Made by a program: the position numbers and the translations under genes
Notes under the pieces: model-generated
The model's database searches: none
The model's input: the letters and a program-made list of their open reading frames with translations, nothing else
What the model was told of the DNA's origin: nothing
From: Archaeoglobus sp. JdFR-37
GTDB taxonomy: Archaea > Halobacteriota > Archaeoglobi > Archaeoglobales > Archaeoglobaceae
DNA length: 59,324 bases
NCBI GenBank assembly: GCA_002010215.1
Contig: MTMY01000030.1
Location: forward strand, 1 to 59,324
Direction of reading: 5' to 3'
Shown here: in pieces, positions 26,062-38,326 of the stretch
Layout of the letters: every line of letters starts with the position of its first letter
Numbering within the stretch: position 1 is the stretch's first letter

Positions 26062-26337
26062 TTAACGCTTCTTTATAACAACTCTCCACAGATTATCCCC
26101 AATCTCCTCAATACTCAGTACTTCATGGCCTTCAGTCTTCACACTTCTTGGAACGTCCTCTACAGCTGGCTGATGATCAAAGATTACCTCCAGAACCTCA
26201 CCACTATCTATTTCTTCCAGCTTCAGCTTGGTCTTAACGAAGGTAAAGGGGCACACCTCTCCTCTGAGGTCTAGGGTATGGGTGGGCCTATCGCTATTCT
26301 TGTTATTCCTATTGTTGTCAATATTAGCAGCAGTCAT
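26062..26337 (-). CDS. TusA-family sulfur carrier
   Basis: LDLRGEVCPFT motif; ATG 26337 preferred. Confidence 0.9.
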   Translation of the reverse strand: MTAANIDNNRNNKNSDRPTHTLDLRGEVCPFTFVKTKLKLEEIDSGEVLEVIFDHQPAVEDVPRSVKTEGHEVLSIEEIGDNLWRVVIKKR

Positions 26338-26360
26338 AATGCTCTCAGTATTGCCGTTAT

Positions 26361-27152
26361 TCAAAGCTGACAGCTCTCCACGTATTTCTCCGGAATTATC
26401 TCCGTGACTCTCCCGCTGCACACTGGGCAATTCTCATCCCTCCTGATTTTCAGTTCGGTAAAGTCCATGGTGAGTAGATCAACATGAAGCATTCTGTTTG
26501 CCAGAGTTTCTCCAATCCCGAGAATAATTTTTACGGCCTCAGCAGCTTGCAAGGTTCCCAGCACTCCTGTGGTGACGCCGAGGACGCCGGCTTCCTGACA
26601 GCTCGGCACGCTTCCCGGCGGAGGAGCGTGTCTGAAGACACAGCGATAGCAGGCAGTTTCTGGTGGAATGATAGTCATCATCTCTCCCTCAAATCGCAGC
26701 ACTGCAGCGTGCACAAAGGGCTTTCTTTCTATAACACAGGCATCATTGATGAGAAATCGAGCAACAAAGTTATCTGTGCAGTCCAGAATCACGTCATACT
26801 CTCTTATAACCTCACGGATGTTCTCAGCGCTCAGATGGTAGGGGTATGTGACTACTTCAACGTCTGGATTGAGCTTCTCAACGAAGAGCTTTGCAGATTC
26901 TGCCTTGTTAATACCCAGATTGCCTGCGTGGATCGTCTGCCTTTGAAGATTTGATATATCAACATTATCGCCATCTGCTATCCCCAGTTTCCCGACTCCA
27001 GCAGCAGCTAAAAACTGAATGGCTGGGCTTCCAAGGCCGCCAGCTCCCACTACCAGCACTTTCGCCTCTAGAAGCTTTTTCTGTCCTACTCCACCAACTT
27101 CCGGCAGTATTATCTGTCTGGCGTATCTCTTGATCTGCTCCTCAGTGAACAT
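26361..27152 (-). CDS. ThiF/MoeB/UbaA-family E1-like adenylyltransferase
   Basis: RYARQIILPEVG, GAGGLG, SNLQRQ, CYRC, SCQEAGVLG, CPVC. Confidence 0.95.
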   Translation of the reverse strand: MFTEEQIKRYARQIILPEVGGVGQKKLLEAKVLVVGAGGLGSPAIQFLAAAGVGKLGIADGDNVDISNLQRQTIHAGNLGINKAESAKLFVEKLNPDVEVVTYPYHLSAENIREVIREYDVILDCTDNFVARFLINDACVIERKPFVHAAVLRFEGEMMTIIPPETACYRCVFRHAPPPGSVPSCQEAGVLGVTTGVLGTLQAAEAVKIILGIGETLANRMLHVDLLTMDFTELKIRRDENCPVCSGRVTEIIPEKYVESCQL

Positions 27153-27154
27153 GT

Positions 27155-27427
27155 TCAGCCTCCTGATATGGCGGGGATGAATGTGACTTCATCCCCATCT
27201 TTGAGCTGCGTTTCCAGCCCATCAAGATATCTTATGTCCTCACCATTTACAAATATATTGATGAAGGGTGTTAGCTCACCATCCTTTATCAACCTTGCCT
27301 CCAGTTCACTGTACTTCTCAAACAATATGTCCAGAAGCTCTTTTACCGTTTTGCCGTCAGCATCTACCTCTATTTTCCTCTCCTTGGTAATGGATACAAA
27401 AACTGATGGAAATTTTACACGTATCAC
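27155..27427 (-). CDS. Ubiquitin-like sulfur carrier (SAMP1/CysO/MoaD family)
   Basis: Beta-grasp pattern NIFVNGEDIR...LKDGDEVTFIPAISGG with free C-terminal Gly-Gly. Confidence 0.93.
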   Translation of the reverse strand: MIRVKFPSVFVSITKERKIEVDADGKTVKELLDILFEKYSELEARLIKDGELTPFINIFVNGEDIRYLDGLETQLKDGDEVTFIPAISGG

Positions 27428-27471
27428 GCCATCACCTCACTTCAACCTCACTTACTTTCTACGCTATTTTC

Positions 27472-28689
27472 TTAGGCTATTACTTTCTCGAACTCCTCAA
27501 GTCTTGGCTTTATTTTGACAGTTCCGGGCAGATGATCAACTATGCCCTCTGTTGTTTTCAACCCATTACCTGTCAGATATGCAACAACCACATCGCTGCT
27601 GTCGATTCTACCGTCTTCTACAAGTCTCTTCAATGCTGCAATTGTTACGCCTCCAGCAAGTTCTGTGAAAATCCCTTCAGTCTTTGCAAGCAATTTTACA
27701 GCTTCGATGCTCTCTTCATCTACTGGATCCTCTGCAAAGCCACTACTTTTTTCAATAATTTCTTTGGCGAAAATTCCATCTGCAGGATTACCTATTGCAA
27801 GACTGTGGACAATTGTTTCCAACCTCCTAACTGGCTCTATTCCTTTACCATACTTTACAGCCTTGGATATGGGCAGACCGTAGGGTTGTGCACCGTTAAA
27901 CACAACATCATTCTCCTCTATCAGGTCAACTCTTTCCAAATCCTCGAAGCCTCTGTGTATTGCACAGAGCAACGCACCTGAGGCCATGGGGACAATAACT
28001 TGATCAGGGGTCGCCCAGCCTAGATGCTCGACAGTTTCATAGGCAAGCGTTTTGCTACCTTCAGCATAGTAAGGCCGGAGATTTATGTTGACAAAGCCCC
28101 AGTCTGGGTTCTCTTCGGCAATCTCTGTGGCGAGTCTGTTGGCATCATCATATGTGCCCTCTACCTCGATTATCTTGGCTCCGTGTACCAGTGCTTGAAC
28201 TATCTTGTTCCTCTCAATTCCCTCTGGGACGAAGATGTAGGCTGGCAGCTTAGCTTTTGCTGCGTGGGCTGCAAGGCTTCCGGCAAGATTGCCGGTTGAA
28301 GCGCAACCAACTGCCTTCATCCCGAATTCAACGGCCTTTGTAACGGCAACACTCACAACCCTGTCCTTAAAGGAATATGTGGGGTTGGTGGAGTCGTCTA
28401 TTAAGTAAAGGTTCTTAAGCCCAAGCTCTTCTCCCAGATTCTCAGCTTTGATGAACCTTGTGAATCCCGCTCCTAGGTCAATGGGTTCAACGTTTTCAAC
28501 CGGTAAGAAGTCTGCGTATCTCCAGATGCTTCTTGGCCCGTTCTCAATCTTCTCCCTGCTGACGTTTTCCGCTATAAAATCCCAGTTGTAAAGGACTTCG
28601 AGTGGACCGAAACAATTATCGCAAGTGTATACGGGCTCCGCAGGGAACTCCTTACCACAAATTCTGCACTTCAAACCTGCAATCTTCAT
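27472..28689 (-). CDS. Threonine synthase-like PLP enzyme (fold type II)
   Basis: N-terminal CRIC/CDNC Zn ribbon, NPTYSFKDR PLP lysine, ASTGN, EGSKT, TGNGLK. The exact reaction is uncertain given its context. Confidence 0.85.
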   Translation of the reverse strand: MKIAGLKCRICGKEFPAEPVYTCDNCFGPLEVLYNWDFIAENVSREKIENGPRSIWRYADFLPVENVEPIDLGAGFTRFIKAENLGEELGLKNLYLIDDSTNPTYSFKDRVVSVAVTKAVEFGMKAVGCASTGNLAGSLAAHAAKAKLPAYIFVPEGIERNKIVQALVHGAKIIEVEGTYDDANRLATEIAEENPDWGFVNINLRPYYAEGSKTLAYETVEHLGWATPDQVIVPMASGALLCAIHRGFEDLERVDLIEENDVVFNGAQPYGLPISKAVKYGKGIEPVRRLETIVHSLAIGNPADGIFAKEIIEKSSGFAEDPVDEESIEAVKLLAKTEGIFTELAGGVTIAALKRLVEDGRIDSSDVVVAYLTGNGLKTTEGIVDHLPGTVKIKPRLEEFEKVIA

Positions 28690-28772: not shown

Positions 28773-29153
28773 TCAGATGAATATTACTTTTTCGGTGTTC
28801 ATCAGAAACTCTCCCAGTCCGGCAATCCTGTCAACCCATTCCGGCAAATCTGAAAGCTCGTACCTGAATATTTCCATGCTGCCGCTGCACGCTATTATCT
28901 CCATATTTCCGAAGGCCTTACCAAGTTCAACGATTTCAGTCAGTTCTTTTATCTTTCCCTCTTCCATGGCTTTTTTGAACACCTCATTCTTCTTTTCGTC
29001 CCCGCAATTCATTTTCCCGTTTGCCAGGCTTTCTATGCTCCAGTAGGTCAGAAAAACAGTTACTTTAGTCTCCAAGGCAGAGTACATGGACGCTAGGCTG
29101 AAAGCGTGATAGATCCTATCCCACTCACCGCTGTGAAGGATTATTCCGATCAT
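28773..29153 (-). CDS. DsrE/DsrF-like (DsrE2/peroxiredoxin-like) sulfur relay protein
   Basis: VFLTYW, IIACSGSM conserved Cys, terminal VIFI. Confidence 0.8.
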   Translation of the reverse strand: MIGIILHSGEWDRIYHAFSLASMYSALETKVTVFLTYWSIESLANGKMNCGDEKKNEVFKKAMEEGKIKELTEIVELGKAFGNMEIIACSGSMEIFRYELSDLPEWVDRIAGLGEFLMNTEKVIFI

Positions 29154-29165
29154 TACCCACACCCA

Positions 29166-29411
29166 TCACTTTTTTAGGATTATTATGAAGCGGTTTTTGT
29201 GCTGGCAGTATGCATATACTTTATCCCTGAACTCTGCACCTATGTTCTCAGCCGACTTCTTTGAGGTAAGTATTACTTTGATTAATTCCCCCTCTTTTGC
29301 CTTATTCAGGGCAGCTTTGGTTTTTAGGGTGGGAACAGGGCACACTTCTCCACTTAGATCAAGAGTTTGGCTGACATCAAGCTTTTCAATTTGCTCTAAG
29401 CTCAATTTCAT
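29166..29411 (-). CDS. TusA-family sulfur carrier
   Basis: LDLSGEVCPVP motif; ATG 29411 overlaps the sat 3' end. Confidence 0.85.
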   Translation of the reverse strand: MKLSLEQIEKLDVSQTLDLSGEVCPVPTLKTKAALNKAKEGELIKVILTSKKSAENIGAEFRDKVYAYCQHKNRFIIILKK

Positions 29412-30546
29412 ACTCTTCCTCCACGAAAGGCTTCTCGAATTTTGAGATAACATCTATAACTTCTTTTCGGAGCATCTCACATGGCATTGCCTCACTATTC
29501 TGGATGCAACTCCTCACACATGTTCCACTGAATTTAACACCATTGTGGGGGCATATTGAAACGCTGATAACTCCACCACAAATCTGGCAGCAATGAAAAT
29601 CTTTGAAGAAAAGGGGTCGTATCTCCAGTTCTGACTCATATTCTTTAAAGATTTCATGGGCTTCATAGGGCTTGTAGTAGCTCCCAACGCCAGCATGGTC
29701 TCTGCCGACGATGAAATGGGTGCAGCCGAAGTTCTGTCTGACAATAGCATGAAGAATCGCTTCTTTAGGTCCGGCGTAACGCATTTCAGTCTTCCATATC
29801 CCCAGAAACACTCTGTTCGGCCTGTAATAGTTATCAATCACGACTTTGTATGCTTCCAGTATTACTTCATCTCTGAAATCACCTTTCTTTTTCCTACCTA
29901 TTACTGGATTGATGAACAGTCCAACTTCTCCACCTGTAACAGCTTCAACCGCTAGCATCGCAGATTTCTGTACGAATTCATGACCGAGATGAGGAGCATT
30001 TCTTGTCTGAAATCCAACTACATAGTCCCATTTTCTGAAAATCTCTCTCGTCTCTTCAGGCTTCAAATCGTATTCCTGAAATCTCTTGTCCACGCTTTCG
30101 ATAAACGTTATTTTCCCACCAGCAAGCTTATCTTTCAGCATGAAAACCTTCCTGACACCGGGGTGTTGGATGTCTTCTGTTCCAAAGACTTGTCGAGCAT
30201 ACTCCTTTTTGTTGTAACGGTACAGTTCTTCGATCTCCATTACCGCAATACCTATACTTCTGTGTGTGAGGAGGACTTCTTCCCCCTCTCTGACTCCGTC
30301 ATCAACATCCAGAACAATAGGTATTGTCCAGGGCAAATCATTTGCGAGCCTACCCCGCCATATGACACTCTCGAAATCATCGCAACTCATGAAGCCCTCT
30401 AGGGGGCTGTAAATGCCAAATCCTATGTTCTCAATATCAAGGGCGGTATCCCTGGATATCTCAATCGTAGGAAGCTCTTTTGCCTCTTCCTTCAGCCTCT
30501 CATCAGCAACCCTCTTAATCAGCTTTCCACCGTGGGGCTTAATCAT
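29386..30546 (-). CDS. sat: Sulfate adenylyltransferase (ATP sulfurylase)
   Basis: PHGGKL, YSPLEGFM, FQTRNAPHLGHE, MRYAGPKEA, GRDHAGVG, C-terminal Zn site CQIC...CPH. Confidence 0.96.
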   Translation of the reverse strand: MIKPHGGKLIKRVADERLKEEAKELPTIEISRDTALDIENIGFGIYSPLEGFMSCDDFESVIWRGRLANDLPWTIPIVLDVDDGVREGEEVLLTHRSIGIAVMEIEELYRYNKKEYARQVFGTEDIQHPGVRKVFMLKDKLAGGKITFIESVDKRFQEYDLKPEETREIFRKWDYVVGFQTRNAPHLGHEFVQKSAMLAVEAVTGGEVGLFINPVIGRKKKGDFRDEVILEAYKVVIDNYYRPNRVFLGIWKTEMRYAGPKEAILHAIVRQNFGCTHFIVGRDHAGVGSYYKPYEAHEIFKEYESELEIRPLFFKDFHCCQICGGVISVSICPHNGVKFSGTCVRSCIQNSEAMPCEMLRKEVIDVISKFEKPFVEEEYEIELRAN

Positions 30547-30552
30547 AATCCA

Positions 30553-30846
30553 TCATCTCCTCACTTCGAAGGAATATTCAGCCTCAAGCTCTCCTGCTCT
30601 GAAAACCTGAAACACCACTCTATTTCCTTCATGATAAGAAAGCATTTCGTAACGCTGATCAGCTATGTGGGGTGGTAGGCGAAGCTTTATGGCTTTAACG
30701 GGACATTCTTTCACACATGCCAGGCAGTGCCAGCACTTATCAGGGTCCTCAATCGTGGGATGGTCTGTAAAGCCAATCACACTGCACGGGCAGATTTTCT
30801 CGCATTTACCGCAGTTAATGCATGCTTCGTAATCTATTATGATCAA
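30553..30846 (-). CDS. AprB-like 2[4Fe-4S] ferredoxin subunit
   Basis: CINCGKCEKICP and CWHCLACVKECPVKAI (AprB-like CW-C-CVK-CP); translationally coupled to the AprA-like gene. Confidence 0.85.
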   Translation of the reverse strand: MIIIDYEACINCGKCEKICPCSVIGFTDHPTIEDPDKCWHCLACVKECPVKAIKLRLPPHIADQRYEMLSYHEGNRVVFQVFRAGELEAEYSFEVRR

Positions 30847-32399
30847 GCAGCATCCCTCCTCAAGAGACTGATGGCACCATCAGTGGTTACAGAATTCAGG
30901 AAGTACTTTGAGTCACTGAACTCAGGATAGTCGCTCCGCATCTGGAATGGAGGCATCCTTGTCTCCCTTCTCTCCAGCATGTGATAGAGCATGACTCTGG
31001 CAACCTCAAGCCTGTCTGTAACTTCAAAGCACCTGATTGGCTTTCCTTTCAGGCTGATACTTCTCAACCTTTCGACTTCCAGAATGGCTCTCCTCACCGA
31101 TTGCTCGCTGTAGTAATAGAATCTGCTCATCCCTCCTGCGTAGCAGTCCAGTACATATTGCATTCGCTTCTCCACATCGCCGGCATCGCACTCACCATCG
31201 AAAGCCAGCTCAGGCTCATCTGGCTGGAAATCCAGAGAATTCTTCAGCATTGCAGCAGTCCTAGCAGCAATCACCCCTTCTGCCAGAGCTCCACCCACGT
31301 GCTTTAGTGGAACGCCGCCAGCAGCGTCGCCAGCAGCGAGCAGGTACGGCACGGTGGTCATTCTGCTCTCATCAACCCATATTCCCGCAATTGTGTGGCT
31401 GCCAGTAATGTAAGGCTCACACGGCTGGACTTCAAGAGGCTCTGCTGATGGGTCAATCTGCCTTGCTTTGAGGAATAGCAGAAATATGGGCCAGCCGTTG
31501 AGGTATAGTCTTATTAAGCTCTCAACCTGCTCTTGAGTCAGTCCTCTGGTGTCGATGTAGACTGGGAACCTTCCTTCCATTATCTCCTTCATAGGCCCAT
31601 AGGCTCTTATTGCAATGGGAGCACTTTCTCCTCCGAATTCTCCGTATTTTGTTTTCATAAACTCTTCTCCCTCTGCACTTCTGAGGGGAGCCTTAAATCC
31701 AACAGCGGTGACGCCTATCGGGCTATTGATGTCCTTTATTCTGATGGGAATAAAGCGAATCTCGAAGGACGTTATTTCTGCTCCAGCCCGTATTGCAAGA
31801 GCGTATCCCGTACCTGCGTTGCATGGAGGGTACCAAGGGACTGTGTAGGGTTTGTAGAGGCCGCTGCACCCGCCGGTGGCGATAAGCGTCGCTTTAGCTC
31901 TGACGAAGAAAACTTCATTATTTCTCAAATCGTAGGCATAGACTCCTTTAACTCCTGAGCTATCAGAGGCAAGCCTGAAAGCATAGCAGTGCTCAATGAT
32001 TTCTGCATTCTCTCTGGCAATGTCGGCCAGGATGGGTTTTATGCTCTCTCCCGTTATTCTCAGCCCGAACCTTCCCTGTCTCCCCCCATCAGCTATCAGT
32101 CCATAATTCTCTAGAACAGATACTGCATAACGGCTTTCAGAAATCATGGAGTGGGTAAGATCTCTCCTCAGCAACCCCATTCCCTGAAATTCCACCCATT
32201 TAACGTAATCCTCGGGACTGTCACCTTCATGTAGATAAGAGTATATCGCATTGACACCAGGAGCTAGGCAGCCACTCCGCTTTATTCCTGCCTTCTCTAG
32301 AATTACAACATCAAGCCCTGCCTTTTTCGCTTCGTATGCTGCGATGCAACCCGCTGTACCTCCGCCAATAACTGCAAGGTCGGTGTTAATTACTTCCAC
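30843..32399 (-). CDS. Adenylylsulfate reductase alpha-subunit-like flavoprotein (compact)
   Basis: IGGGTAG FAD site, EKAGIKRSGCLAPGVNAI (cf. AprA RSGAVAQGLSAIN), WYPPCNAG, EPYITGSH, RRETR, RSDYP; flanked by the ferredoxin gene and sat. Confidence 0.85.
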   Translation of the reverse strand: MEVINTDLAVIGGGTAGCIAAYEAKKAGLDVVILEKAGIKRSGCLAPGVNAIYSYLHEGDSPEDYVKWVEFQGMGLLRRDLTHSMISESRYAVSVLENYGLIADGGRQGRFGLRITGESIKPILADIARENAEIIEHCYAFRLASDSSGVKGVYAYDLRNNEVFFVRAKATLIATGGCSGLYKPYTVPWYPPCNAGTGYALAIRAGAEITSFEIRFIPIRIKDINSPIGVTAVGFKAPLRSAEGEEFMKTKYGEFGGESAPIAIRAYGPMKEIMEGRFPVYIDTRGLTQEQVESLIRLYLNGWPIFLLFLKARQIDPSAEPLEVQPCEPYITGSHTIAGIWVDESRMTTVPYLLAAGDAAGGVPLKHVGGALAEGVIAARTAAMLKNSLDFQPDEPELAFDGECDAGDVEKRMQYVLDCYAGGMSRFYYYSEQSVRRAILEVERLRSISLKGKPIRCFEVTDRLEVARVMLYHMLERRETRMPPFQMRSDYPEFSDSKYFLNSVTTDGAISLLRRDAA

Positions 32400-32649
32400 T
32401 TATAACCAACCTCCAGTATCCCTCTTCTTTTCTGCTTTCAACCTTGTATCCCTTCTTTTCCAGAATAATGGGGATGTCTCTGGCTGAAGGCGGATTATCG
32501 GTTATGACTTCCAGTGTTGCATTTCCAACCTTTTTTAAGGCAAGCTCGGTGAATATCTGGGGGAAGGGGCATGTATTGCCGCGAACATCCAGCTCATATC
32601 TTCCCTCATCCAGCTTTTTAAGCTTGAGGTCTGTTTTGAGATCCATCAT
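32386..32649 (-). CDS. TusA-family sulfur carrier
   Basis: LDVRGNTCPFP and DNPPS motifs. Confidence 0.9.
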   Translation of the reverse strand: MMDLKTDLKLKKLDEGRYELDVRGNTCPFPQIFTELALKKVGNATLEVITDNPPSARDIPIILEKKGYKVESRKEEGYWRLVISGSN

Positions 32650-34109
32650 AACACCTCCAGAAATTCGTTTAATGTATTTCCATTGAGTTGCTCCTTCTGC
32701 TCCCTAAACTGCTTATACCTCCTGAGAATATCATCCAGAACCTCTGCAGCCTCTTCAGGGGTGAGAGATTCCTTGTAAAGCTTTGCCATCTTCAGCCCTC
32801 TGAAATCTCCTCCAATGTAGAGGTCGTACCCCTGAACAACGCTCCCATTTCTCTTCATCAACTTCCCCATCAGACCGAAGTGGGCGACGTGATGGCATCC
32901 GCATGCATTGTGGCATCCTGAAATGTGGATGCGGACATCTTCTTTTATTCCATGCTTCTCAACAACTTCAAGCAGCTTTCTCAGCATGTCCTTTGCGTGG
33001 ACATCTCTGGTCTTACCGCAAAAATCGGATGCGCAGCCGATGGAGTTATAGAATACCTCACTGTCATAAAGCCTGAAATGCCTAGAGAGCTCGTTCTTGA
33101 GGGCTTCAACATCCTCAACATCAACAAAGGTAATGTTCTGGGTTGTGGTCAGCCTGATCTCTCCGCTGCCGTACTTCTCTGCCAGCTCTCCAATTACATC
33201 CAGCCTGTCAGCATCCAAAACTCCGCCAATCAGCGGGAGGGTGAAATAGTGCAGCCCATTTACCTGTTTTCCTGAGCCATTGTGAACATCATGCTTGAGG
33301 TCTGGAAGCTCCTTGAAGTCCTCGAGCTTTCCGATTTTCTCCTCTACCACTTCTCTTACCTTCTCAACCCCCCATGATGCAACCAAGTTCTTGAATCTGG
33401 CTTTAACCTTGCTCTCCCTGCTGGAGTAATCACGATGGACTTCAACCACTGCTTTGACGAACTCGAAAACGTCGTCTTCAGGCACAAATACAGGCATGTG
33501 CTTTGCCAGTGATGGGCCCGGAAAGCTTGCTCCAACACTACCACCTATAAGCGGAGTGAAACCTCTTTCGCCATCTTTCTCCACGCTTATCATGGCCAAA
33601 TCATTCACGCCGGCCCTTATGCAATCACTACCACATGCGGTAAAAGCAATCTTGAACTTCCTAGGCAGGTCGATATAATCGGGATTACCAGAAAAGAATT
33701 CAGTAAGGCTGACTGCATACTTTGCCACATCAAAATCGCTAACCTTACCGCTGAGGGGGCAAGCAATAATATTGCGGACATCACCATGGCATGCTCCGCT
33801 GAAGCCCTGACCACACAGATCAGTTGTGTAACCGAGTCTGTAAAGCCTTTCAAAGATTTCAAGGGATTTATCGCTGTCTATCCAGTGAAGCTGTATGTCC
33901 TGCCTGTCTGTAACCTCAACGTAACCTCTCCCATACTCTCTGGACATGCTTGCAATCTCAAAAATCCTTTCAGCGTTTATCTGCCCGGCAGGAATTTTGA
34001 TTCTGAGAAAGTGAAGGGAACCCATTCCATTATCTCTGCCGAGGGAGTATTTTCCTATGAACTTCCCAATCTCACCGAGATCGATACTTATTTCTTCCAA
34101 GACACTCAC
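32646..34109 (-). CDS. Ferredoxin-type siroheme sulfite/nitrite reductase (Sir/NirA family)
   Basis: TDRQDIQLHW, LPRKFKIA, RLTTTQN; siroheme/[4Fe-4S] ligands GCASDFC and SGCHNACG; first gene of the sat/apr operon. Confidence 0.9.
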   Translation of the reverse strand: MSVLEEISIDLGEIGKFIGKYSLGRDNGMGSLHFLRIKIPAGQINAERIFEIASMSREYGRGYVEVTDRQDIQLHWIDSDKSLEIFERLYRLGYTTDLCGQGFSGACHGDVRNIIACPLSGKVSDFDVAKYAVSLTEFFSGNPDYIDLPRKFKIAFTACGSDCIRAGVNDLAMISVEKDGERGFTPLIGGSVGASFPGPSLAKHMPVFVPEDDVFEFVKAVVEVHRDYSSRESKVKARFKNLVASWGVEKVREVVEEKIGKLEDFKELPDLKHDVHNGSGKQVNGLHYFTLPLIGGVLDADRLDVIGELAEKYGSGEIRLTTTQNITFVDVEDVEALKNELSRHFRLYDSEVFYNSIGCASDFCGKTRDVHAKDMLRKLLEVVEKHGIKEDVRIHISGCHNACGCHHVAHFGLMGKLMKRNGSVVQGYDLYIGGDFRGLKMAKLYKESLTPEEAAEVLDDILRRYKQFREQKEQLNGNTLNEFLEVL

Positions 34110-35042: not shown

Positions 35043-35051
35043 GGTGATGGG

Positions 35052-35831
35052 ATGGAGATTTTCTTAGGTGCACTGGTGGGCTTCTTAGTGGGGCTGACAG
35101 GGATGGGCGGTGGAGCTTTGATGACTCCTGCTCTGATTCTGCTTGGCTATCCACCATTGACTGCTGTAGGGACTGATTTAATCTATGCTGGAGGTGTCAA
35201 GGGAGTTGCAAGCCTCCTTCACAGAAAACAGAGGAATGTTGATGTAGATCTGCTGAAAGTTACAGTCCCTCCAGGGATTCTGGGGATTTTCGGCGGATAC
35301 ATGATTCTAGAAGCATTTGAATCTGAGGCTTCAAGACTCATAACCGTTCTGCTGGCAGTAGTGCTTCTGACTTCCAGCATTCTGATGATAATCTCTCATT
35401 TCAGGAAGAGATATCTGAAAGTGGAATGCTTTGTTTGCGAACGCTATTGTGTGAAGTTCAGCGAGAGCAATGGGAGGAAGGGGGTTATAGCTGCTGTTGC
35501 CTTCATAGTTGGTTTGCTTGTTGCAATTACATCTGTTGGCAGCGGAACCCTTATGACATTCGCTCTAATAACCATTACTAACTTGAAACCCCACAGAATT
35601 GTTGGCACCGACATCGTGAACGGACTGCTGTTCACAGTGGTGGCTGCATCGCTCCACGGCTTCAGTGGCAACGTCAATTTCCCACTTGCAGCAGAACTCA
35701 TTGCTGGCGGGTTAATAGGGGTCTATTTCGGAGTCCATGCTTCGAGCAGGTGCTCATCTGAACTCCTCAAAATAGCTCTCACATCCACAGTGGGCGTAAC
35801 GGCTTTGGTTGTGGCTGTCAATCTGTGGTAA
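35052..35831 (+). CDS. TauE/SafE-family sulfite/sulfonate exporter
   Basis: GLTGMGGGALMTP, AVGTDL, TSVGSG, IVGTD repeated TSUP motifs; about 8 TM segments. Confidence 0.92.
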   Translation: MEIFLGALVGFLVGLTGMGGGALMTPALILLGYPPLTAVGTDLIYAGGVKGVASLLHRKQRNVDVDLLKVTVPPGILGIFGGYMILEAFESEASRLITVLLAVVLLTSSILMIISHFRKRYLKVECFVCERYCVKFSESNGRKGVIAAVAFIVGLLVAITSVGSGTLMTFALITITNLKPHRIVGTDIVNGLLFTVVAASLHGFSGNVNFPLAAELIAGGLIGVYFGVHASSRCSSELLKIALTSTVGVTALVVAVNLW

Positions 35832-35842
35832 AACTTAAATAA

Positions 35843-35855: not shown

Positions 35856-35863
35856 GCTTTCCG

Positions 35864-37048
35864 ATGAATCTCGACAGATACAGGCCAGAGAACCTCAGAA
35901 GACCCTCCAATGGGATGATAAACATTCATCCCATCCAGAGAGGAGGAATACTGACAGATGAGGCGAGAAGGATAATTAATGAATGGGCTGATGGTTATTC
36001 TGTCTGTGACCTCTGTTTTGAAGGTAGAGTAGACCTTATAAGAAACCCCCCTATTGAGGAATTCAAAAGAGATGTTGCCGAGTTCCTCAACATGGATGAT
36101 GTTCGTTTCACCGCTGGAGCCAGACATGCCAAGTTCGTGATAATGGCTGGCTACGCTGGGGGTAGCGTGGTTCTGGATTCCCTCGCCCACTATACCTCAT
36201 ACATTGCTGCTGAGCTCAACGGGCTGAAGGTGTTTGAGGTTCCGAATTCCGGGTATCCTGAGTTCAAGATTCATCCGGAAGGTTACGCAGAGACTTTTGA
36301 AAGGATCAAGGAGGAAACCGGCAGTTATCCATCCCTTGCACTCCTCACCCATGTGGATTACAGGTATGGAAACGTTGCCGATGCAAAGGAGATTGGAAAG
36401 GTCTGCAGAGATTACGGAGTCCCTCTCATTCTAAACACTGCTTACAGCTCGGGAATAATGGAAATTGATGGAAAGGGGATGTATGTGGACTTTATTGTAG
36501 GGAGTGGACATAAAAGCTGGGCTGCGACCGCTCCGATAGGCATCCTTGCCACAAACTTCGAAAATACCGATAAGATTTTCAGAAAATCGAAGCTGAGGGG
36601 AGACTGGAGCGGCAGGGCATTCACCAAGAAAGAAGTAGCCTTTTTCGGATGCTCTCCAGTTTATGGTTTACCAGTGATGACACTGATGGCATCATTTCCG
36701 GCTGTGGTGAAAAGAGTTAAGGAGTGGGACAAAGAGATTGAGAAGGCCAGATGGTTTGTGAGGGAGATGGAAAAGATAGAGGGGGTTCAGCTCATCGGCG
36801 AGAGGCCGAAAGCACACACCCTGATGCACTTCGAAACTCCCACCTTTCACATGATTGCCAAGAGACACAAGAAGAGGGGCTATTTCCTGTATCACGAGCT
36901 GAAGAAGCGTGGTATTGTTGGAATTCACCCTGGAATGACAAAGAACTTCAAGATAAACGTTTACGGGCTGAGCTGGGAGGAGCTTGAGAAAGTTGCCAAT
37001 GCATTTAAGGAGATTGCCGAAGAGCACGGAGTGGAGGTGGAGGATTGA
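35864..37048 (+). CDS. pscS: O-phosphoseryl-tRNA:Cys-tRNA synthase (SepCysS)
   Basis: PIQRGGIL, GYSVCDLC, LAHYTS, SGHKSW PLP lysine, FGCS, RGYFLYHELKKRGIVGI. Confidence 0.95.
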   Translation: MNLDRYRPENLRRPSNGMINIHPIQRGGILTDEARRIINEWADGYSVCDLCFEGRVDLIRNPPIEEFKRDVAEFLNMDDVRFTAGARHAKFVIMAGYAGGSVVLDSLAHYTSYIAAELNGLKVFEVPNSGYPEFKIHPEGYAETFERIKEETGSYPSLALLTHVDYRYGNVADAKEIGKVCRDYGVPLILNTAYSSGIMEIDGKGMYVDFIVGSGHKSWAATAPIGILATNFENTDKIFRKSKLRGDWSGRAFTKKEVAFFGCSPVYGLPVMTLMASFPAVVKRVKEWDKEIEKARWFVREMEKIEGVQLIGERPKAHTLMHFETPTFHMIAKRHKKRGYFLYHELKKRGIVGIHPGMTKNFKINVYGLSWEELEKVANAFKEIAEEHGVEVED

Positions 37049-38013
37049 AGGGCGACGCATTTAGAAGGCACTTCGAAATTCCGGGAAGGCCTGTTGCAGT
37101 TAAGCTCCTGAAGGAGGAAATTAATGTCGGCGAGGCTACTGAAGGAAGCTTCAGGTACTGTGAGGCAGTAAAGCTCGCATCTGCTGGTCAGAGAATAGTC
37201 CTGAATGAAATCAATCTGTCGTGCAGCGGAGCTGAGGTCTCTCTCGGCCTGATCGAGCCACTGTTTGAGGAGGAGGGAGAAGAAAGCGGGGAAATTATAA
37301 AGACGGTGATCATAGAGCCCTATACCGGACAAGACTGCGATGCAGTTCTTGTGGTGGTAACTCCAGAAAAGGCCATGAAGATAGGCTCAACCTATGCACA
37401 GCTTTTCAACGAGCCCGTGTCTGCTAGATTCTCCGGAGAGAATGCAGTGTGCGGTGAGGCAACCCGAGAGGTCATAGACAGTGGTAAACCCAATGTCTCC
37501 TTCTTGTGTGAGGGTGCCAGAGAGTACGGCGGGTATGCGAAGGATGAAATCGTAATCGGATTTCCAGCGGAGATATTCAGGAAGATGGATGAGGCCATAG
37601 CCAAGGAACAGATAAGAGCCCTTTGTGGGTGCCTTATGGACGACCTGCCAAAGAGGGTTATCGAGAAATTTGAAGAGATGGGATTTGATAAGGCAACAGA
37701 CCACTTCATGGGAATGCATAACGGAAAGGTGGTGAAACTCTACGTCATGAAGGGAGAGAAGCTCAGCGGTGTGGCAGTTTTCACCTCTGTTAAGTTTAAG
37801 AGCGAGGATGAGGCAGAGAAGGTGGTTGGAAGTTATTCGGGAAGCGGTTTGCTTTACCGCAGAGAAAACTGGGTTGATGTTTCAAAAATCATCGAGTTTG
37901 ACGACCTTGAGAGGGCTATCAGAGAGCCGGACTTTGAAAGAAGGCTTTTGGATGTTATCAAAGAGGTCATCAGGGAGGCAAAAGATTTAAAGGCTTTAAC
38001 AAAAATAGTTTAA
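37045..38013 (+). CDS. DUF169-like Cys-rich protein with C-terminal extension
   Basis: PVAVK, RYCEAV, SCSGA..LG, VCGE, SFLCEGAR..G...DEIVIGFP; TTG start overlapping the pscS stop. Confidence 0.75.
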   Translation: MKGDAFRRHFEIPGRPVAVKLLKEEINVGEATEGSFRYCEAVKLASAGQRIVLNEINLSCSGAEVSLGLIEPLFEEEGEESGEIIKTVIIEPYTGQDCDAVLVVVTPEKAMKIGSTYAQLFNEPVSARFSGENAVCGEATREVIDSGKPNVSFLCEGAREYGGYAKDEIVIGFPAEIFRKMDEAIAKEQIRALCGCLMDDLPKRVIEKFEEMGFDKATDHFMGMHNGKVVKLYVMKGEKLSGVAVFTSVKFKSEDEAEKVVGSYSGSGLLYRRENWVDVSKIIEFDDLERAIREPDFERRLLDVIKEVIREAKDLKALTKIV

Positions 38014-38022
38014 CGGTGTTTA
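38010..38022. promoter_or_regulatory. One-mismatch operator copy TTAACGGTGTTTA upstream of the HTH regulator gene
   Basis: 12/13 identical to the 34151 site; overlaps the DUF169 stop codon, 4 nt before ATG 38027. Confidence 0.45.
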
Positions 38023-38026
38023 TAAA

Positions 38027-38326
38027 ATGAAGGTACCGTGTGAGGTAATGGCCTCAAAGGTAATCCCTATGATAAGGGGTGAATTGGCCAGAGAGCTTGT
38101 AGCAAGAGGCCACTCAAAGAAGGAGGTAGCTGAAATTCTCGGCGTCACAATTGCTGCCGTTTCCCAGTATACCAGCAGAAAAAGGGGAGATACAAGCGAT
38201 GAAGAGATAAAGAAGATTGTTAAGGAAATAGTTGATGATTTTGAGGCCGGAAGAATTAGCAAGGATGATTTAAACGTCAAGCTCTGCTTTGTGTGCAGCA
38301 CGGTAGGTAGACAGGGTATTGAGTAG
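38027..38326 (+). CDS. XRE/HTH transcriptional regulator (COG2522-like)
   Basis: PCE...IPMIRGELARELV, KKEVAEILGVTIAAVSQY HTH, KRG, C-terminal CFVC. Confidence 0.85.
   Translation: MKVPCEVMASKVIPMIRGELARELVARGHSKKEVAEILGVTIAAVSQYTSRKRGDTSDEEIKKIVKEIVDDFEAGRISKDDLNVKLCFVCSTVGRQGIE

What the first reader, a model, noticed from the sequence alone, without database searches (positions are those of the whole stretch)
26062..38326. Self-contained sulfate-assimilation island linking Sat / compact AprAB / siroheme Sir to SepCysS
Seen: a tightly coupled minus-strand operon sir-tusA-aprA'-aprB'-sat-tusA-dsrE, then thrC-like/SAMP/E1/tusA, and on the opposite strand tauE-pscS-DUF169-HTH. Established: Archaeoglobus respires sulfate with Sat, full-length AprAB, Qmo and DsrAB, and SepCysS makes Cys-tRNA from Sep-tRNA plus a sulfur donor. 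Here the AprA-like protein is only 518 aa, the reductase is a monomeric Sir/NirA type rather than DsrAB, and no qmo/dsr, APS kinase or PAPS reductase genes are present. Inference: this is an assimilatory route (sulfate to APS to sulfite to sulfide/persulfide) that hands sulfur through TusA/DsrE carriers to tRNA-dependent cysteine synthesis. Related Apr-type assimilatory clusters exist in Clostridia and Methanothermococcus, but I do not know of this combination coupled to SepCysS.
Basis: partly seen in the sequence, partly recalled or inferred. Interest (0 to 1): 0.88.

Follow-up and report, generated by a model that had tools for sequence, protein, structure and literature searches.

The report
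Archaeal sulfate-to-cysteine gene island
A non-sulfate-breathing relative of Archaeoglobus keeps its genes for reducing sulfate, carrying sulfur on small proteins and making cysteine on tRNA side by side, which points to a protein-bound sulfur supply for tRNA-dependent cysteine synthesis.

Summary

The assimilatory reading is well supported:
- The 94.5%-complete genome has no DsrA, DsrC or canonical AprA.
- AprA' belongs to the Apr family, not to fumarate reductase or aspartate oxidase. It forms a compact clade inside the group that holds the Methanothermococcus PAPS reductase.

APS versus PAPS stays open. The closest studied enzyme is PAPS-specific, yet this genome lacks APS kinase and a whole PAPS module that its sister genome carries.

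The island is three modules:
- a reduction module, sir-tusA-aprA'B'-sat-tusA-dsrE;
- a thrC-like/SAMP/E1/TusA module that also occurs in sulfate respirers and resembles the MetM/MetO thiocarboxylate homocysteine route;
- SepCysS with a long, cysteine-rich DUF169 protein.

SepCysS and DUF169 are a tight pair: adjacent in 21 of 22 class genomes and 46 of 59 metagenome loci. They recur beside the SAMP/E1/TusA/thrC-like genes in several gene orders.

The sat/aprA-like/sir cluster was already noted in Geoglobus and proposed as assimilatory in Ferroglobus. My literature searches did not find its coupling to SepCysS-DUF169. All biochemical steps are inferred.

The parts
32646..34109 (-). sir: monomeric siroheme-type sulfite/nitrite reductase, 487 aa
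   Evidence: PF01077 (160 bits) and PF03460 (119 bits), two stretches each. Best PDB matches are plant NirA and M. tuberculosis NirA/SirA 1zj8, E 6e-46. No NCBIfam equivalog cut-off is reached. Single copy by tblastn.
32386..32649 (-). tusA1: TusA-type sulfur carrier, 87 aa, with a Cys-Pro motif
   Evidence: PF01206, 66.8 bits. The sequence reads ...RGNTCPFP.... It follows sir in every locus that reaches this spot: L022-L024, L026-L029, L047 and L070.
30843..32399 (-). aprA': compact FAD subunit of an assimilatory-type APS/PAPS reductase, 518 aa
   Evidence: Best PDB match is 8a8o_A, the MtPAPSR alpha subunit, at 1.4e-111; A. fulgidus AprA scores 2e-70. NF005331 gives 461 bits against a cut-off of 557; TIGR02061 gives 262 against 642. 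See the tree and the residue table.
30553..30846 (-). aprB': 2x[4Fe-4S] ferredoxin-like subunit, 97 aa
   Evidence: Fer4 families match. TIGR02060 aprB gives 31 bits against a cut-off of 136. The sequence holds two CX2CX2CX3CP motifs.
29386..30546 (-). sat: ATP sulfurylase, 386 aa
   Evidence: PF01747 and PF14306 match. NF003166 gives 465 bits against 387, and TIGR00339 gives 351 against 323.
29166..29453 (-). tusA2: TusA-type carrier; the true start is probably later than the longest ORF
   Evidence: PF01206, 54 bits. The sequence reads ...SGEVCPVP....
28773..29162 (-). dsrE-like: DsrE/DsrF-like sulfur-carrier protein, 129 aa
   Evidence: PF13686, 44.7 bits against a cut-off of 25. The DsrE2 equivalog NF047629 gives only 25 against 210. 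Conserved at 36-92% identity in L021, L022, L024-L026, L028, L029 and L047.
27472..28689 (-). thrC-like: PLP enzyme and paralogue of threonine synthase, 405 aa; proposed thiocarboxylate-dependent homocysteine (or cysteine) synthase
   Evidence: TIGR00260, 304 bits. The paralogue on contig C17 is much nearer to solved ThrCs (2zsj: 2e-107 against 5e-57). Orthologues occur in 22 of 96 class genomes. SAMP follows it in the loci inspected, except L106, where it lies apart.
27155..27427 (-). SAMP: ubiquitin-like sulfur carrier ending in Gly-Gly, 90 aa
   Evidence: NF041918 SAMP1 gives 75 bits against 60; TIGR01687 gives 74 against 49.5. The C-terminus reads ...PAISGG, then the stop codon.
26361..27152 (-). 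E1: MoeB/UbaA-type adenylyltransferase without a rhodanese domain, 263 aa; the only E1 found in the genome
   Evidence: PF00899, 284 bits. NF004281 gives 276 against 266. The UbaA model NF047750 gives 318 against 450. tblastn finds no second copy.
26062..26430 (-). tusA3: TusA-type carrier following E1
   Evidence: PF01206, 88 bits. The sequence reads ...RGEVCPFT.... The E1-TusA adjacency is also seen in L039, L043, L048, L049, L068, L069, L070, L100, L105 and L110.
35052..35831 (+). tauE: TauE/SafE (TSUP) membrane transporter, 259 aa; candidate sulfate or sulfite carrier
   Evidence: PF01925, 154 bits. Conserved upstream of SepCysS in L024, L026, L028 and L062-L064. The genome has no SulP family gene.
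35864..37048 (+). SepCysS (window type, here called W): Sep-tRNA:Cys-tRNA synthase, 394 aa; the only copy in the genome
   Evidence: TIGR02539 gives 510 bits against 365. PDB matches: 3wkr/5x6b at 2.3e-115 and 2e7i at 9.6e-103. Single copy. C48, C51 and C263 are invariant in alignment A3.
37045..38013 (+). Long-form DUF169, 322 aa, translationally coupled to SepCysS; six invariant Cys plus a chaperone-like C-terminal domain
   Evidence: PF02596, 99.7 bits. The invariant cysteines are C39, C60, C136, C155, C194 and C196. AlphaFold2 model, pLDDT 87.7. The C-terminal domain matches 3cxj at Z 10.0. Adjacent to SepCysS in 21 of 22 class genomes and 46 of 59 metagenome loci.
38027..38326 (+). Small HTH protein, 99 aa; possible regulator
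   Evidence: PF01381, 26 bits. Homologues at 41-44% lie near SepCysS-DUF169 in L044 and L049. None was found in the Geoglobus/Ferroglobus-type loci.
25100..25948 (+). LarE-family PP-loop sulfur transferase, 282 aa; a recurrent neighbour whose membership of the system is uncertain
   Evidence: TIGR00268 gives 287 bits against 150. Homologues lie within a few kb of E1 or SepCysS in L022, L039, L040, L062, L105 and L116.

Best explanation
This is a sulfur-assimilation gene neighbourhood of an uncultured Archaeoglobi archaeon that does not respire sulfate. It consists of three modules, each also found apart from the others in some related genomes or loci.

1. Reduction module (sir-tusA-aprA'-aprB'-sat-tusA-dsrE-like).
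- Sat activates sulfate to APS.
- The compact AprA'B' reduces the activated sulfate to sulfite. It is an FAD plus 2x[4Fe-4S] enzyme from a branch of the Apr group that holds the Methanothermococcus PAPS reductase. I favour APS as substrate at about 60:40 over PAPS.
- The monomeric siroheme Sir reduces sulfite.
- The product is trapped as persulfide on the TusA and DsrE-like carriers instead of being released as free sulfide.

2. Carrier module (thrC-like-SAMP-E1-tusA).
- The genome's only E1 adenylates the Gly-Gly end of the SAMP.
- The adjacent TusA stands in for the missing rhodanese domain and converts the SAMP to a thiocarboxylate.
- The diverged threonine-synthase paralogue uses that thiocarboxylate with O-phospho-homoserine to make homocysteine, as MetM/MetO do. 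Less likely, it uses O-phosphoserine to make free cysteine.

3. tRNA module (tauE-SepCysS-DUF169-HTH).
- The only SepCysS of the genome converts Sep-tRNACys to Cys-tRNACys.
- Its constant partner, a long DUF169 protein with six invariant cysteines and a chaperone-like C-terminal domain, is proposed to take sulfur from the carriers and pass it to the SepCysS persulfide cysteines.

Shown here: gene content, family membership, phylogenetic placement, phyletic patterns and conserved neighbourhoods. Inferred: every chemical step, the direction of sulfur flow, and any contact between the proteins.
For: Assimilatory rather than respiratory:
- The own genome (1.97 Mb, 94.5% complete) gives no DsrA beyond a weak hit to sir itself, no DsrC and no AprA over its cut-off.
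- It has no CysK/CysM over cut-off. It has SepRS and CysRS and a single SepCysS.

Apr family membership:
- In a quick IQ-TREE of 53 rows, the 21 compact sequences form one clade (SH-aLRT 100). They sit inside the ~570-aa group. That whole group is sister to five canonical Archaeoglobi AprA (97-98), with three other flavoproteins outside.
- The residues aligned to Af W234, R265, R317 and H398 are invariant in all 125 sequences compared.

Distribution:
- The compact AprA' occurs in 14 of 96 class genomes. Of the other 82, 60 show the canonical long AprA and 22 gave no match at E 1e-30.

APS favoured:
- The own genome has no APS kinase, only two P-loop hits of about 21 bits.
- The same-genus genome G054 carries the module sat2-DHH-phosphodiesterase-APS kinase-tauE2. 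All eight genes of that stretch are absent from the window's genome, while the flanking nadC and hisF are 91% identical and lie mid-contig.
- G038 (98% complete) and G043 (92%) also have AprA' without an APS kinase.
- The PAPS module brings its own Sat, so each module looks complete in itself.

Synteny of the island: sir-tusA-aprA'-aprB'-sat-(tusA)-dsrE-thrC-like-SAMP-E1 is kept in L021-L029 at 36-96% identity.

thrC-like is not the housekeeping ThrC:
- The C17 paralogue matches solved ThrCs far better.
- Apart from the 22 thrC-like orthologues, the matches (93 of 96 genomes) are 30-44% identical, like the C17 copy, so a C17-like copy is near-universal in the class.
- G043, G044, G045 and G056 lack both COG1900 HcyBio and PF01053 enzymes, yet keep thrC-like.
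- The MetM/MetO/MoeZ pathway is summarised in GapMind 2026 (passages).

SepCysS-DUF169 link:
- Window-type SepCysS occurs in 25 of 96 genomes.
- Long DUF169 occurs in 22 genomes, all among those 25 and in none of the other 71. It is adjacent to SepCysS in 21.
- In 59 non-self metagenome loci found with DUF169, SepCysS is directly adjacent in 46.

Link of that pair to the carriers, in different gene orders:
- L048, L066, L069: thrC-like-SAMP-E1-(tusA)-SepCysS-DUF169.
- L105: larE-thrC-like-SAMP-E1-tusA-DUF169-SepCysS.
- L106: SAMP-E1-DUF169-SepCysS-tusA-thrC-like.
- L070: the whole island, convergent with SepCysS-DUF169.
- L047: the island without aprA'B'/sat.

All three TusA copies carry the Cys-Pro motif.
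Against: Against APS:
- The closest characterised enzyme is PAPS-specific.
- The compact clade lacks the Gln that would clash with a 3'-phosphate: Gly in 21 of 21.
- It keeps basic residues at the positions of Mt K120 and K124.
- Ten of its 14 genomes have a full APS kinase.
- In L023 an APS kinase lies on the same contig, about 7.5 kb from aprA'.

Against assuming unchanged Apr chemistry: Asn at Af position 74 is invariant in 104 of 104 canonical and mid-group sequences, but is Tyr in 21 of 21 compact ones. Its catalytic role is recalled by me, not taken from a call.

Against thrC-like as the homocysteine route:
- The own genome, and 87 of 96 in the class, already have the COG1900 homocysteine route.
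- G065, G072 and G079 lack all three routes, so absences are noisy.
- I could not compare thrC-like with Streptomyces MetM itself.

Against a dedicated carrier module: E1 is the only E1 in the genome, so it must also serve other SAMP/MoaD proteins (three paralogues on C1).

Against a necessary link to SepCysS:
- In G036 SepCysS-DUF169 lies 170 kb from the island, and in G001 about 340 kb from thrC-like.
- Eight of the 19 metagenome loci with at least 4 kb on both sides show SepCysS-DUF169 with none of the other island genes.

No expression data or biochemical data exist for any part.
Confidence: 0.55

Rival explanations
1. PAPS route, as in Methanothermococcus. AprA'B' is a PAPS reductase that needs the separate sat2-DHH(PAP phosphatase)-APS kinase module. 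In this genome that module is missing, either lost or unassembled, so the island would be idle or limited to sulfite.
For: - Best PDB match is MtPAPSR, which reduced PAPS about 16 times faster than APS (section 9).
- Gly stands at the Gln145 clash position, and Arg at the positions of Mt K120 and K124.
- APS kinase is present in 10 of the 14 AprA' genomes, plus one fragment.
- The PAPS module is conserved in G054, G036 and G094.
- It lies next to the island in L023.
Against: - The own genome, G038 (98% complete) and G043 (92%) keep intact AprA'B' and Sat without an APS kinase.
- The module is absent at a conserved mid-contig site, not at a contig break.
- APS kinase is just as common in genomes with canonical AprA (61 of 96 overall), so it does not track AprA'.
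- The Arg that is invariant in the ~570-aa group (99 of 99, Mt R118) is Gln in 20 of 21 compact sequences.
- The island carries its own Sat directly beside aprB'.
Confidence: 0.3
2. Co-regulation only. The modules sit together because they respond to the same sulfur status. SepCysS-DUF169 takes free sulfide, and the carriers serve other ends such as tRNA thiolation, molybdopterin and Fe-S assembly.
For: - Sulfide suffices for SepCysS in vitro (PMC2330236, passage).
- E1 is the only E1 and so is a housekeeping enzyme.
- SepCysS-DUF169 stands alone in 8 of the 19 well-flanked metagenome loci, and far from the island in G036 and G001.
Against: - The same six gene kinds (thrC-like, SAMP, E1, TusA, DUF169, SepCysS) are kept together in at least four different orders, at DUF169 identities down to 31%.
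- The long DUF169 occurs only with this SepCysS type.
- Carriers of the island are non-sulfate-respiring lineages. Relatives named are Geoglobus and Ferroglobus, described as iron reducers in PMC4600277.
Confidence: 0.3
3. Sulfite supply. The main task of Sat-AprA'B' is to make sulfite for sulfonate synthesis (cysteate synthase plus sulfopyruvate decarboxylase, on contig C21). Sir removes the toxic excess.
For: - The own genome encodes a cysteate synthase (TIGR03844, 350 bits against 325) next to a fused sulfopyruvate decarboxylase.
- Cysteate-synthase-like genes occur in 12 of 96 class genomes, and 11 of those 12 carry the compact AprA'.
- G044, which keeps sir but lacks aprA'B'/sat, also lacks the cysteate-synthase-like gene.
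Against: - Only 4 of the 12 hits reach the family cut-off.
- The association is confounded by kinship, since it involves few genera.
- sir leads the operon and is directly followed by TusA.
- The cysteate genes lie on another contig.
- No McrA was found, so a need for coenzyme M is unclear.
Confidence: 0.15
4. Energy metabolism. The cluster works in dissimilatory sulfite or thiosulfate reduction, or in reverse as a sulfur-oxidising Apr/Sat pathway fed by TusA and DsrE.
For: - Sulfur oxidisers use TusA and DsrE-type carriers together with Apr and Sat (recalled, not from a call).
- The G. ahangari genome paper left a dissimilatory role open (passage).
Against: - The genome gives no DsrAB, DsrC or canonical AprA.
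- AprB' is truncated to 97 aa.
- Sir is of the assimilatory monomeric type.
- The operon continues into amino-acid-forming PLP enzymes.
- G. ahangari does not respire sulfate, sulfite or thiosulfate.
Confidence: 0.05

Closest known systems
Assimilatory sulfate reduction of Methanothermococcus thermolithotrophicus (ATPS, APSK, PAPP, MtPAPSR alpha/beta, Fsr; PMC10322725)
   Same: An ATP sulfurylase is clustered with an Apr-like FAD/2x[4Fe-4S] reductase used for assimilation. AprA' has MtPAPSR as its best solved relative (E 1.4e-111) and branches inside the same ~570-aa group.
   Different: - The window and its genome have no APS kinase or PAP phosphatase.
- The final reductase is a monomeric NirA/Sir type, not F420-dependent Fsr.
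- AprA' is about 50 aa shorter.
- AprA' has Tyr for the otherwise invariant Asn (Af 74) and Gln for the group's invariant Arg.
- TusA and DsrE carriers are interleaved with the enzymes.
sir/aprAB/sat cluster of Geoglobus ahangari (GAH_02063-02067) and Ferroglobus placidus (PMC4600277; PMC10504309)
   Same: This is the same cluster. G. ahangari AprA' is 68% identical. Geoglobus- and Ferroglobus-labelled loci show the same gene order.
   Different: The passages I saw list the genes and leave the function open (2015), or suggest assimilation in one sentence (2023). They do not mention TusA/DsrE, thrC-like/SAMP/E1 or SepCysS-DUF169.
MetM/MetO/MoeZ thiocarboxylate route to homocysteine in Streptomyces (Hasebe 2024; seen only through citing papers)
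   Same: A threonine-synthase homologue that is annotated as ThrC sits next to a ThiS/MoaD-type carrier and an E1.
   Different: - The host is archaeal.
- The carrier already ends in Gly-Gly, so no Mec maturation is needed.
- E1 has no rhodanese domain, and a TusA follows it.
- The substrate is untested.
CysO/CysM/MoeZ cysteine synthesis of Mycobacterium tuberculosis (recalled)
   Same: A protein thiocarboxylate acts as sulfide donor to a PLP enzyme that acts on an O-phospho amino acid.
   Different: The PLP enzyme here belongs to the ThrC branch, not the CysM branch; cysKM TIGR01136 gives only 34 bits.
SepRS-SepCysE-SepCysS transsulfursome of class I methanogens (PMC5688128)
   Same: SepCysS works with a dedicated small partner protein. 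The window's SepCysS is nearer to the M. jannaschii enzyme (3wkr, 2.3e-115) than to A. fulgidus AF0028-type 2e7i (9.6e-103).
   Different: - Archaeoglobi lack SepCysE (PMC8762117, passage).
- The partner here is an unrelated cysteine-rich DUF169 with a YbjN/chaperone-like C-terminal domain.
- Binding between DUF169 and SepCysS has not been shown.

Membership tests
Dissimilatory APS reductase AprA (TIGR02061) | Score over the curated equivalog cut-off | tested here: not met
   261.7 bits against a cut-off of 641.75. Only 38-43% identical over the N-terminal ~390 residues to the 643-aa AprA of class relatives.
Dissimilatory APS reductase AprA (TIGR02061) | Occurs with DsrAB/DsrC in the genome | tested here: not met
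   No DsrA and no DsrC in a 94.5%-complete genome. Qmo was not searched for.
MtPAPSR-like assimilatory Apr group | Closest relative by sequence and tree placement | tested here: met
   8a8o_A scores E 1.4e-111. The compact clade is nested in the ~570-aa group with support 100 (quick tree; MtPAPSR itself was not a row).
MtPAPSR-like assimilatory Apr group | Residues invariant in the group (Asn at Af 74, Arg at Af 141) | tested here: not met
   Tyr in 21 of 21 and Gln in 20 of 21 compact sequences, against Asn in 99 of 99 and Arg in 99 of 99.
MtPAPSR-like assimilatory Apr group | Core residues shared with AprA (Af W234, R265, R317, H398) | tested here: met
   Invariant in all 125 sequences. Their roles are recalled by me, not taken from a call.
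MtPAPSR-like assimilatory Apr group | PAPS rather than APS as substrate | not testable with these tools
   Sequence signs are mixed. The genome context lacks an APS kinase.
Assimilatory siroheme sulfite/nitrite reductase (NirA/Sir/CysI) | Two NIR_SIR domains, each with a ferredoxin-like half domain | tested here: met
   PF01077 and PF03460, two stretches each.
Assimilatory siroheme sulfite/nitrite reductase (NirA/Sir/CysI) | Curated equivalog score, which would tell sulfite from nitrite | tested here: inconclusive
   Best is NF007125 nitrite reductase at 238 bits against 594; sir TIGR02042 gives 146 against 731. Only the gene context argues for sulfite.
SepCysS (TIGR02539) | Score over the cut-off and the conserved cysteines | tested here: met
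   509.7 bits against 365.25. C48, C51 and C263 are invariant in 9 sequences. Their persulfide role is recalled.
MetM/MetO thiocarboxylate homocysteine synthase | A ThrC homologue distinct from the housekeeping ThrC, beside a Gly-Gly carrier and an E1 | tested here: met
   Searches show the paralogy. Searches show the adjacency. One search shows the Gly-Gly end.
MetM/MetO thiocarboxylate homocysteine synthase | Orthology to Streptomyces MetM; use of O-phospho-homoserine | not tested
SAMP / UbaA system | Curated scores | tested here: inconclusive
   SAMP1 NF041918 gives 75 bits against 60 (met). UbaA NF047750 gives 318 against 450 (not reached). The MoeB subfamily model NF004281 gives 276 against 266 (reached).
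TusA (PF01206) | Domain score and the Cys-Pro motif | tested here: met
   The three copies score 88, 54 and 67 bits against a cut-off of 28.6. Each sequence holds a CP motif.
DsrE2 sulfur carrier (NF047629) | Equivalog score | tested here: not met
   25.5 bits against 210. Only the broad PF13686 family is matched, at 44.7 against 25.
DUF169 (PF02596) | Domain score | tested here: met
   99.7 bits against 27, covering the N-terminal ~180 residues. The C-terminal ~120 residues form an added domain.

The most novel reading that the evidence does not exclude
The long DUF169 protein is the missing partner of this SepCysS type. It would be a cysteine- or Fe-S-based acceptor that takes sulfur from protein carriers (TusA/DsrE persulfide, or the SAMP thiocarboxylate made by the adjacent E1) and delivers it to SepCysS. 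On this reading, tRNA-dependent cysteine synthesis in these archaea runs on protein-bound rather than free sulfide. The same carrier would feed a thrC-like homocysteine synthase. That would name the physiological sulfur donor of SepCysS, which a 2008 review still called open (PMC2330236).
Probability: 0.3. Interest if true: 0.8.

Novelty: new variant of a known kind. Interest (0 to 1): 0.62.

Why it matters
The in vivo sulfur donor of SepCysS was still described as awaiting investigation in a 2008 review (PMC2330236, passage). My search for 'SepCysS' with 'sulfur donor' returned 3 papers. I read only that review; the listed titles and abstract openings of the other two did not concern a donor.

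This neighbourhood supplies concrete, clonable candidates: three TusA copies, a DsrE-like protein, a SAMP with its E1, and above all a DUF169 protein that travels with SepCysS.

It would also explain how iron-reducing Archaeoglobi obtain reduced sulfur. Free sulfide is likely scarce where they live. That scarcity is my inference.

The compact AprA' clade also offers natural variants for working out APS versus PAPS specificity in the Apr family: Asn to Tyr, Arg to Gln, and Gly at the clash site.

Finally, it flags that genes annotated as 'threonine synthase' and 'dissimilatory adenylylsulfate reductase' in these genomes are probably misnamed.

Tried and rejected
- **Complex prediction:** Complex prediction of SepCysS (alignment A3) with DUF169 (alignment A2) gave no verdict, ipSAE 0.00 in both runs. 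It counts neither for nor against binding.
- **Fold of DUF169:**
  - Foldseek against PDB gave nothing clear for the whole model.
  - The N-terminal domain folded alone (pLDDT 83.8) had a best VIA Z of 4.3, so no solved relative was found.
  - Only the C-terminal domain matched: YbjN/type III chaperone-like, Z 10.0 to 3cxj and 9.8 to 4h5b.
- **Expression:** no RNA holder was listed for 29386-34109, so no reads were laid.
- **APS kinase as a phyletic test:** not informative, because it occurs in 61 of 96 genomes whatever their AprA type.
- **Complementary distribution of thrC-like and COG1900:** only weakly seen. Six of the 9 genomes lacking COG1900 have thrC-like, but two of those six have PF01053 instead.
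- **In-frame TGA in some DUF169 matches:** I suspected selenocysteine. In the one case I translated (L023) it is the ordinary stop codon. The other three were not translated.
- **McrA:** not found, so the cysteate synthase is not explained by methane metabolism.
- **tRNA genes:** none in the window.
- **Papers not held:**
  - Hasebe 2024 on MetM/MetO and Smith 2015 on the Ferroglobus transcriptome.
  - Their content is known to me only through citing papers.
  - The Smith data or its supplements may bear on expression of the Ferroglobus cluster.
- **Promoter and terminator scan:** not run, because the tool models bacterial signals only.
- **Not searched:** Qmo, sulfate ABC transporters, CysZ and PiT.

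Full report
**1. What is there**

The window is contig C10 of a 1.97-Mb, 52-contig genome judged 94.5% complete.

- Minus strand, eleven genes from 34109 to 26062: sir, tusA, aprA' (518 aa), aprB' (97 aa), sat, tusA, dsrE-like, thrC-like, SAMP, E1, tusA.
  - They run with 4-14 nt overlaps or gaps of a few bases.
  - The exceptions are 83 nt before thrC-like and 44 nt before SAMP.
- Plus strand: tauE, SepCysS, DUF169 (overlapping SepCysS by 4 nt) and a small HTH.
In relatives that spacer is only about 130 bp (L024, L026, L028).
- All three TusA copies have the Cys-Pro motif. The SAMP ends in Gly-Gly. AprB' has two CX2CX2CX3CP motifs.

**2. Assimilatory or dissimilatory**

Family searches of the own genome gave these results:

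- No DsrA apart from a weak hit on sir itself.
- No DsrC.
- No AprA over its cut-off.
- No CysK/CysM over cut-off.
- One weak PAPS_reduct-family protein.
- SepRS and CysRS are present.

By tblastn, Sat, AprA', Sir, E1, TauE, SepCysS and DUF169 are single-copy. So this SepCysS is the only recognisable way to make cysteine.

Relatives named by the collection are 'Candidatus Mnemosynella biddleae' (82% AprA'), Ferroglobus sp. and Geoglobus sp. MAGs (65-70%). G. ahangari stands at 68%.

**3. What AprA' is**

- Its best solved relative is the alpha subunit of the Methanothermococcus PAPS reductase (8a8o, E 1.4e-111). A. fulgidus AprA follows at 2e-70 and succinate dehydrogenase at 8e-13.
- A quick maximum-likelihood tree of 53 rows was built: 21 compact, 24 of the ~570-aa group, 5 canonical Archaeoglobi AprA and 3 other flavoproteins.
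  - The compact sequences form one clade (SH-aLRT 100), nested in the ~570-aa group.
  - That group is sister to canonical AprA (97-98).
  - The other flavoproteins lie outside.
  - The careful search did not finish, and MtPAPSR itself was not a row.
- Across the class, 14 of 96 genomes have the compact form. Of the other 82, 60 show the canonical long form and 22 gave no match.

**4. APS or PAPS**

Jespersen and Wagner showed that MtPAPSR prefers PAPS. They ascribed this to loop 104-123 and to the loss of A. fulgidus Gln145, which would clash with the 3'-phosphate (section 9 read).

I aligned 5 canonical, 99 mid-group and 21 compact sequences:

| A. fulgidus position | Canonical (5) | ~570-aa group (99) | Compact (21) |
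|---|---|---|---|
| Gln145 (clash site) | Gln 5/5 | Asn 86, Asp 8, Ser 3, Gly 2 | Gly 21/21 |
| 143 (Mt K120) | Gln 2, Pro 2, Arg 1 | Arg 64, Asn 24, Lys 8 | Arg 20, Lys 1 |
| Met147 (Mt K124) | Met 5/5 | mostly Lys (78) | Arg 20, Lys 1 |
| Glu141 (Mt R118) | Glu 5/5 | Arg 99/99 | Gln 20/21 |
| Asn74 | Asn 5/5 | Asn 99/99 | Tyr 21/21 |
| W234, R265, R317, H398 | invariant | invariant | invariant |

The first three rows resemble the PAPS enzyme. The next two set the compact clade apart from it.

Genome context leans the other way:

- The own genome has no APS kinase.
- The same-genus genome G054 has a separate operon: sat2, a DHH protein, a phosphodiesterase-family protein, APS kinase and tauE2, followed by sugar-nucleotide genes.
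  - None of these eight genes has an orthologue in the window's genome.
  - The flanking nadC and hisF are 91% identical and lie in the middle of contig C9.
- G038 (98% complete) and G043 (92%) also combine AprA' with no APS kinase.
- Against this, 10 of the 14 do have one. APS kinase is also common in canonical-AprA genomes (61 of 96 overall).

I put APS at roughly 60%.

**5. The thrC-like/SAMP/E1/TusA module**

- The genome has a second ThrC on contig C17 that matches solved threonine synthases far better (2zsj: 2e-107 against 5e-57; TIGR00260: 358 against 304 bits).
- In the class, a C17-like copy is near-universal. Orthologues of the window's thrC-like (66% identity or more) occur in 22 of 96 genomes.
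- Seven of the 22 lack the compact AprA' and instead gave a match only 30-41% identical to it (G001, G003, G012, G013, G055 and G093) or none (G009).
  - I inspected five of them: G001, G003, G012, G013 and G055.
  - In each, thrC-like is still followed by SAMP and E1. TusA comes directly after E1 in four of the five; in G003 the nearest TusA hit lies about 2.5 kb downstream.
- The module is therefore independent of the sulfate genes.
- Its make-up matches the MetM/MetO/MoeZ route from O-phospho-homoserine to homocysteine. I know that route only from citing papers, which note that MetM is often misannotated as threonine synthase.
- Phyletic support is modest.
  - COG1900 HcyBio is present in the own genome and in 87 of 96.
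  - PF01053 enzymes occur only in G092 and G093.
  - G043, G044, G045 and G056 lack both but keep thrC-like.
  - G065, G072 and G079 lack all three.
- A cysteine-forming reaction from O-phosphoserine, as with CysO/CysM, remains possible.
- Two JAMM proteases are encoded elsewhere in the genome.

**6. SepCysS and DUF169**

- The class holds two SepCysS types.
  - The window type (65% identity or more) occurs in 25 genomes.
  - A common type (45-54%) occurs elsewhere.
  - Seven genomes have both.
- The long DUF169 occurs in 22 genomes. All are among those 25, and none among the other 71. It is directly adjacent to SepCysS in 21; in G093 the two genes lie on different contigs.
- A word-indexed search of 5.8 billion proteins found only 29 relatives.
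- A metagenome scan with the DUF169 alignment gave 59 non-self loci. SepCysS is directly adjacent in 46: upstream in 40 and downstream in 6.
  - Ten of the remaining 13 have under 300 bp upstream.
  - One ends 1 bp after the gene.
  - Only L074 and L117 have room and lack SepCysS.
- DUF169 has six invariant cysteines.
- Its model (pLDDT 87.7) has a C-terminal domain of the YbjN/type III chaperone kind, with Z 10.0 to 3cxj over 114 residues at rmsd 3.8. The N-terminal domain has no solved match.
- Mukai and co-workers noted DUF169 occasionally beside SepRS, and that Archaeoglobi lack SepCysE (passages).

**7. The link between the modules**

- In Geoglobus/Ferroglobus-type loci, DUF169-SepCysS-tauE lies divergently upstream of sir. 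This holds in 4 of the 6 loci that reach that side.
- Other arrangements keep the same genes together:

| Locus | Arrangement |
|---|---|
| L048, L066, L069 | thrC-like-SAMP-E1-(tusA)-SepCysS-DUF169 on one strand |
| L049, L068 | SepCysS-DUF169 about 2.8 kb from thrC-like-SAMP-E1-tusA |
| L105 | larE-thrC-like-SAMP-E1-tusA-DUF169-SepCysS |
| L106 | SAMP-E1-DUF169-SepCysS-tusA-thrC-like |
| L070 | whole island convergent with SepCysS-DUF169 |
| L047 (G044) | island with sir-tusA but without aprA'B'/sat |

- Counter-examples exist.
  - G036 has the pair 170 kb from the island, and G001 about 340 kb from thrC-like.
  - Eight of 19 well-flanked metagenome loci show the pair alone, and another 8 of the 19 hold E1, SAMP or thrC-like.
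- The pattern fits a functional partnership of SepCysS-DUF169 with the SAMP/E1/TusA carriers. Sulfate or sulfite reduction then looks like an add-on in lineages that do not make sulfide by respiration.

**8. Mechanism proposed, and its status**

The proposed flow runs as follows:

- Sulfate enters, perhaps through TauE. No SulP gene exists; other transporter families were not searched.
- Sat makes APS.
- AprA'B' makes sulfite.
- Sir reduces sulfite.
- The product is held on TusA or the DsrE-like protein.
- E1 and TusA charge the SAMP as a thiocarboxylate.
- thrC-like makes homocysteine.
- DUF169 passes sulfur to SepCysS for Cys-tRNA.

A 2026 paper reports that assimilatory sulfite reductases release zero-valent sulfur (abstract seen). 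That would suit capture by TusA. Every chemical step here is inference. The electron donors of AprB' and Sir are unknown.

**9. Novelty**

- The sir/aprAB/sat cluster and the lack of dsrAB were described for G. ahangari, with F. placidus said to have the same genes.
- An assimilatory role in F. placidus was suggested.
- Apr-type assimilatory reduction is established in Methanothermococcus.
- Mukai 2017 mentions 'a few sulfur metabolism genes' near clade VII SepCysS.
- My full-text searches found no description of the SepCysS-DUF169 pair or of its coupling to SAMP/E1/TusA/thrC-like and the sulfate genes. The searches were:
  - SepCysS with DUF169;
  - COG2043 or PF02596;
  - Ferroglobus, Geoglobus, sulfate assimilation, SepCysS, sulfite reductase;
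  - SepCysS with sulfur donor;
  - thiocarboxylate and MetM terms.
- The library lacks most subscription journals.

**10. Verdict**

The finding is real and conserved. It is a new variant of known kinds of system, and it has one truly open and testable element: DUF169 and protein-bound sulfur supply to SepCysS.

Noticed in passing
window 34244-34818 (+): A vapB/vapC toxin-antitoxin pair sits in the divergent promoter region between sir and tauE. Relatives have only about 130 bp there (L024, L026, L028). A paralogous pair lies on contig C8 (54% and 38% identity).
   Followed up: partly
G000 contig C21:8246-14204 (L060): A cysteate synthase (TIGR03844, 350 bits against 325) lies next to a fused sulfopyruvate decarboxylase, CobB, a ferredoxin and COG1900 HcyBio. 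The genome shows no McrA. Cysteate-synthase-like genes occur in 12 of 96 class genomes, and 11 of those carry the compact AprA'. This may be a second sink for sulfite.
   Followed up: partly
L036 (G054:C51:1-8933); also L038 and L037: A conserved separate operon, sat2-DHH-type I phosphodiesterase-APS kinase-tauE2, lies beside sugar-nucleotide genes in the sister genome and other relatives. All of it is missing from the window's genome, although the flanks (nadC, hisF) are conserved.
   Followed up: yes
window 30843-32399 (aprA' residue Y53): The Asn aligned to A. fulgidus AprA Asn74 is invariant in 104 of 104 canonical and ~570-aa group sequences, but is Tyr in 21 of 21 compact-clade sequences. 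This is unexplained and could mean altered chemistry.
   Followed up: partly
window 24219-25948 (+): A thioredoxin-like protein and a LarE-family PP-loop sulfur transferase lie just beyond the third tusA. LarE homologues recur near E1 or SepCysS in L022, L039, L040, L062, L105 and L116.
   Followed up: partly
class genomes: The class holds two SepCysS types. Seven genomes (G001, G003, G009, G012, G041, G055, G085) carry both. Only the window type is paired with DUF169.
   Followed up: yes
L047 (G044:C37): A natural variant of the island keeps sir-tusA-dsrE-thrC-like-SAMP-E1 and the divergent SepCysS-DUF169, but lacks aprA', aprB', sat and the second tusA. This points to a sulfite-only form.
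   Followed up: partly
window 26337-26430 and 29411-29453: The longest ORFs of tusA3 and tusA2 overlap the preceding genes by about 70 nt, and their N-terminal extensions are not conserved. Internal Met codons are the likelier starts.
   Followed up: no
window 38499-41221: A flavodiiron FprA-like protein (minus strand) and a class II (NAD-type, TIGR00532) HMG-CoA reductase follow the island. No link to it was seen in related loci.
   Followed up: no
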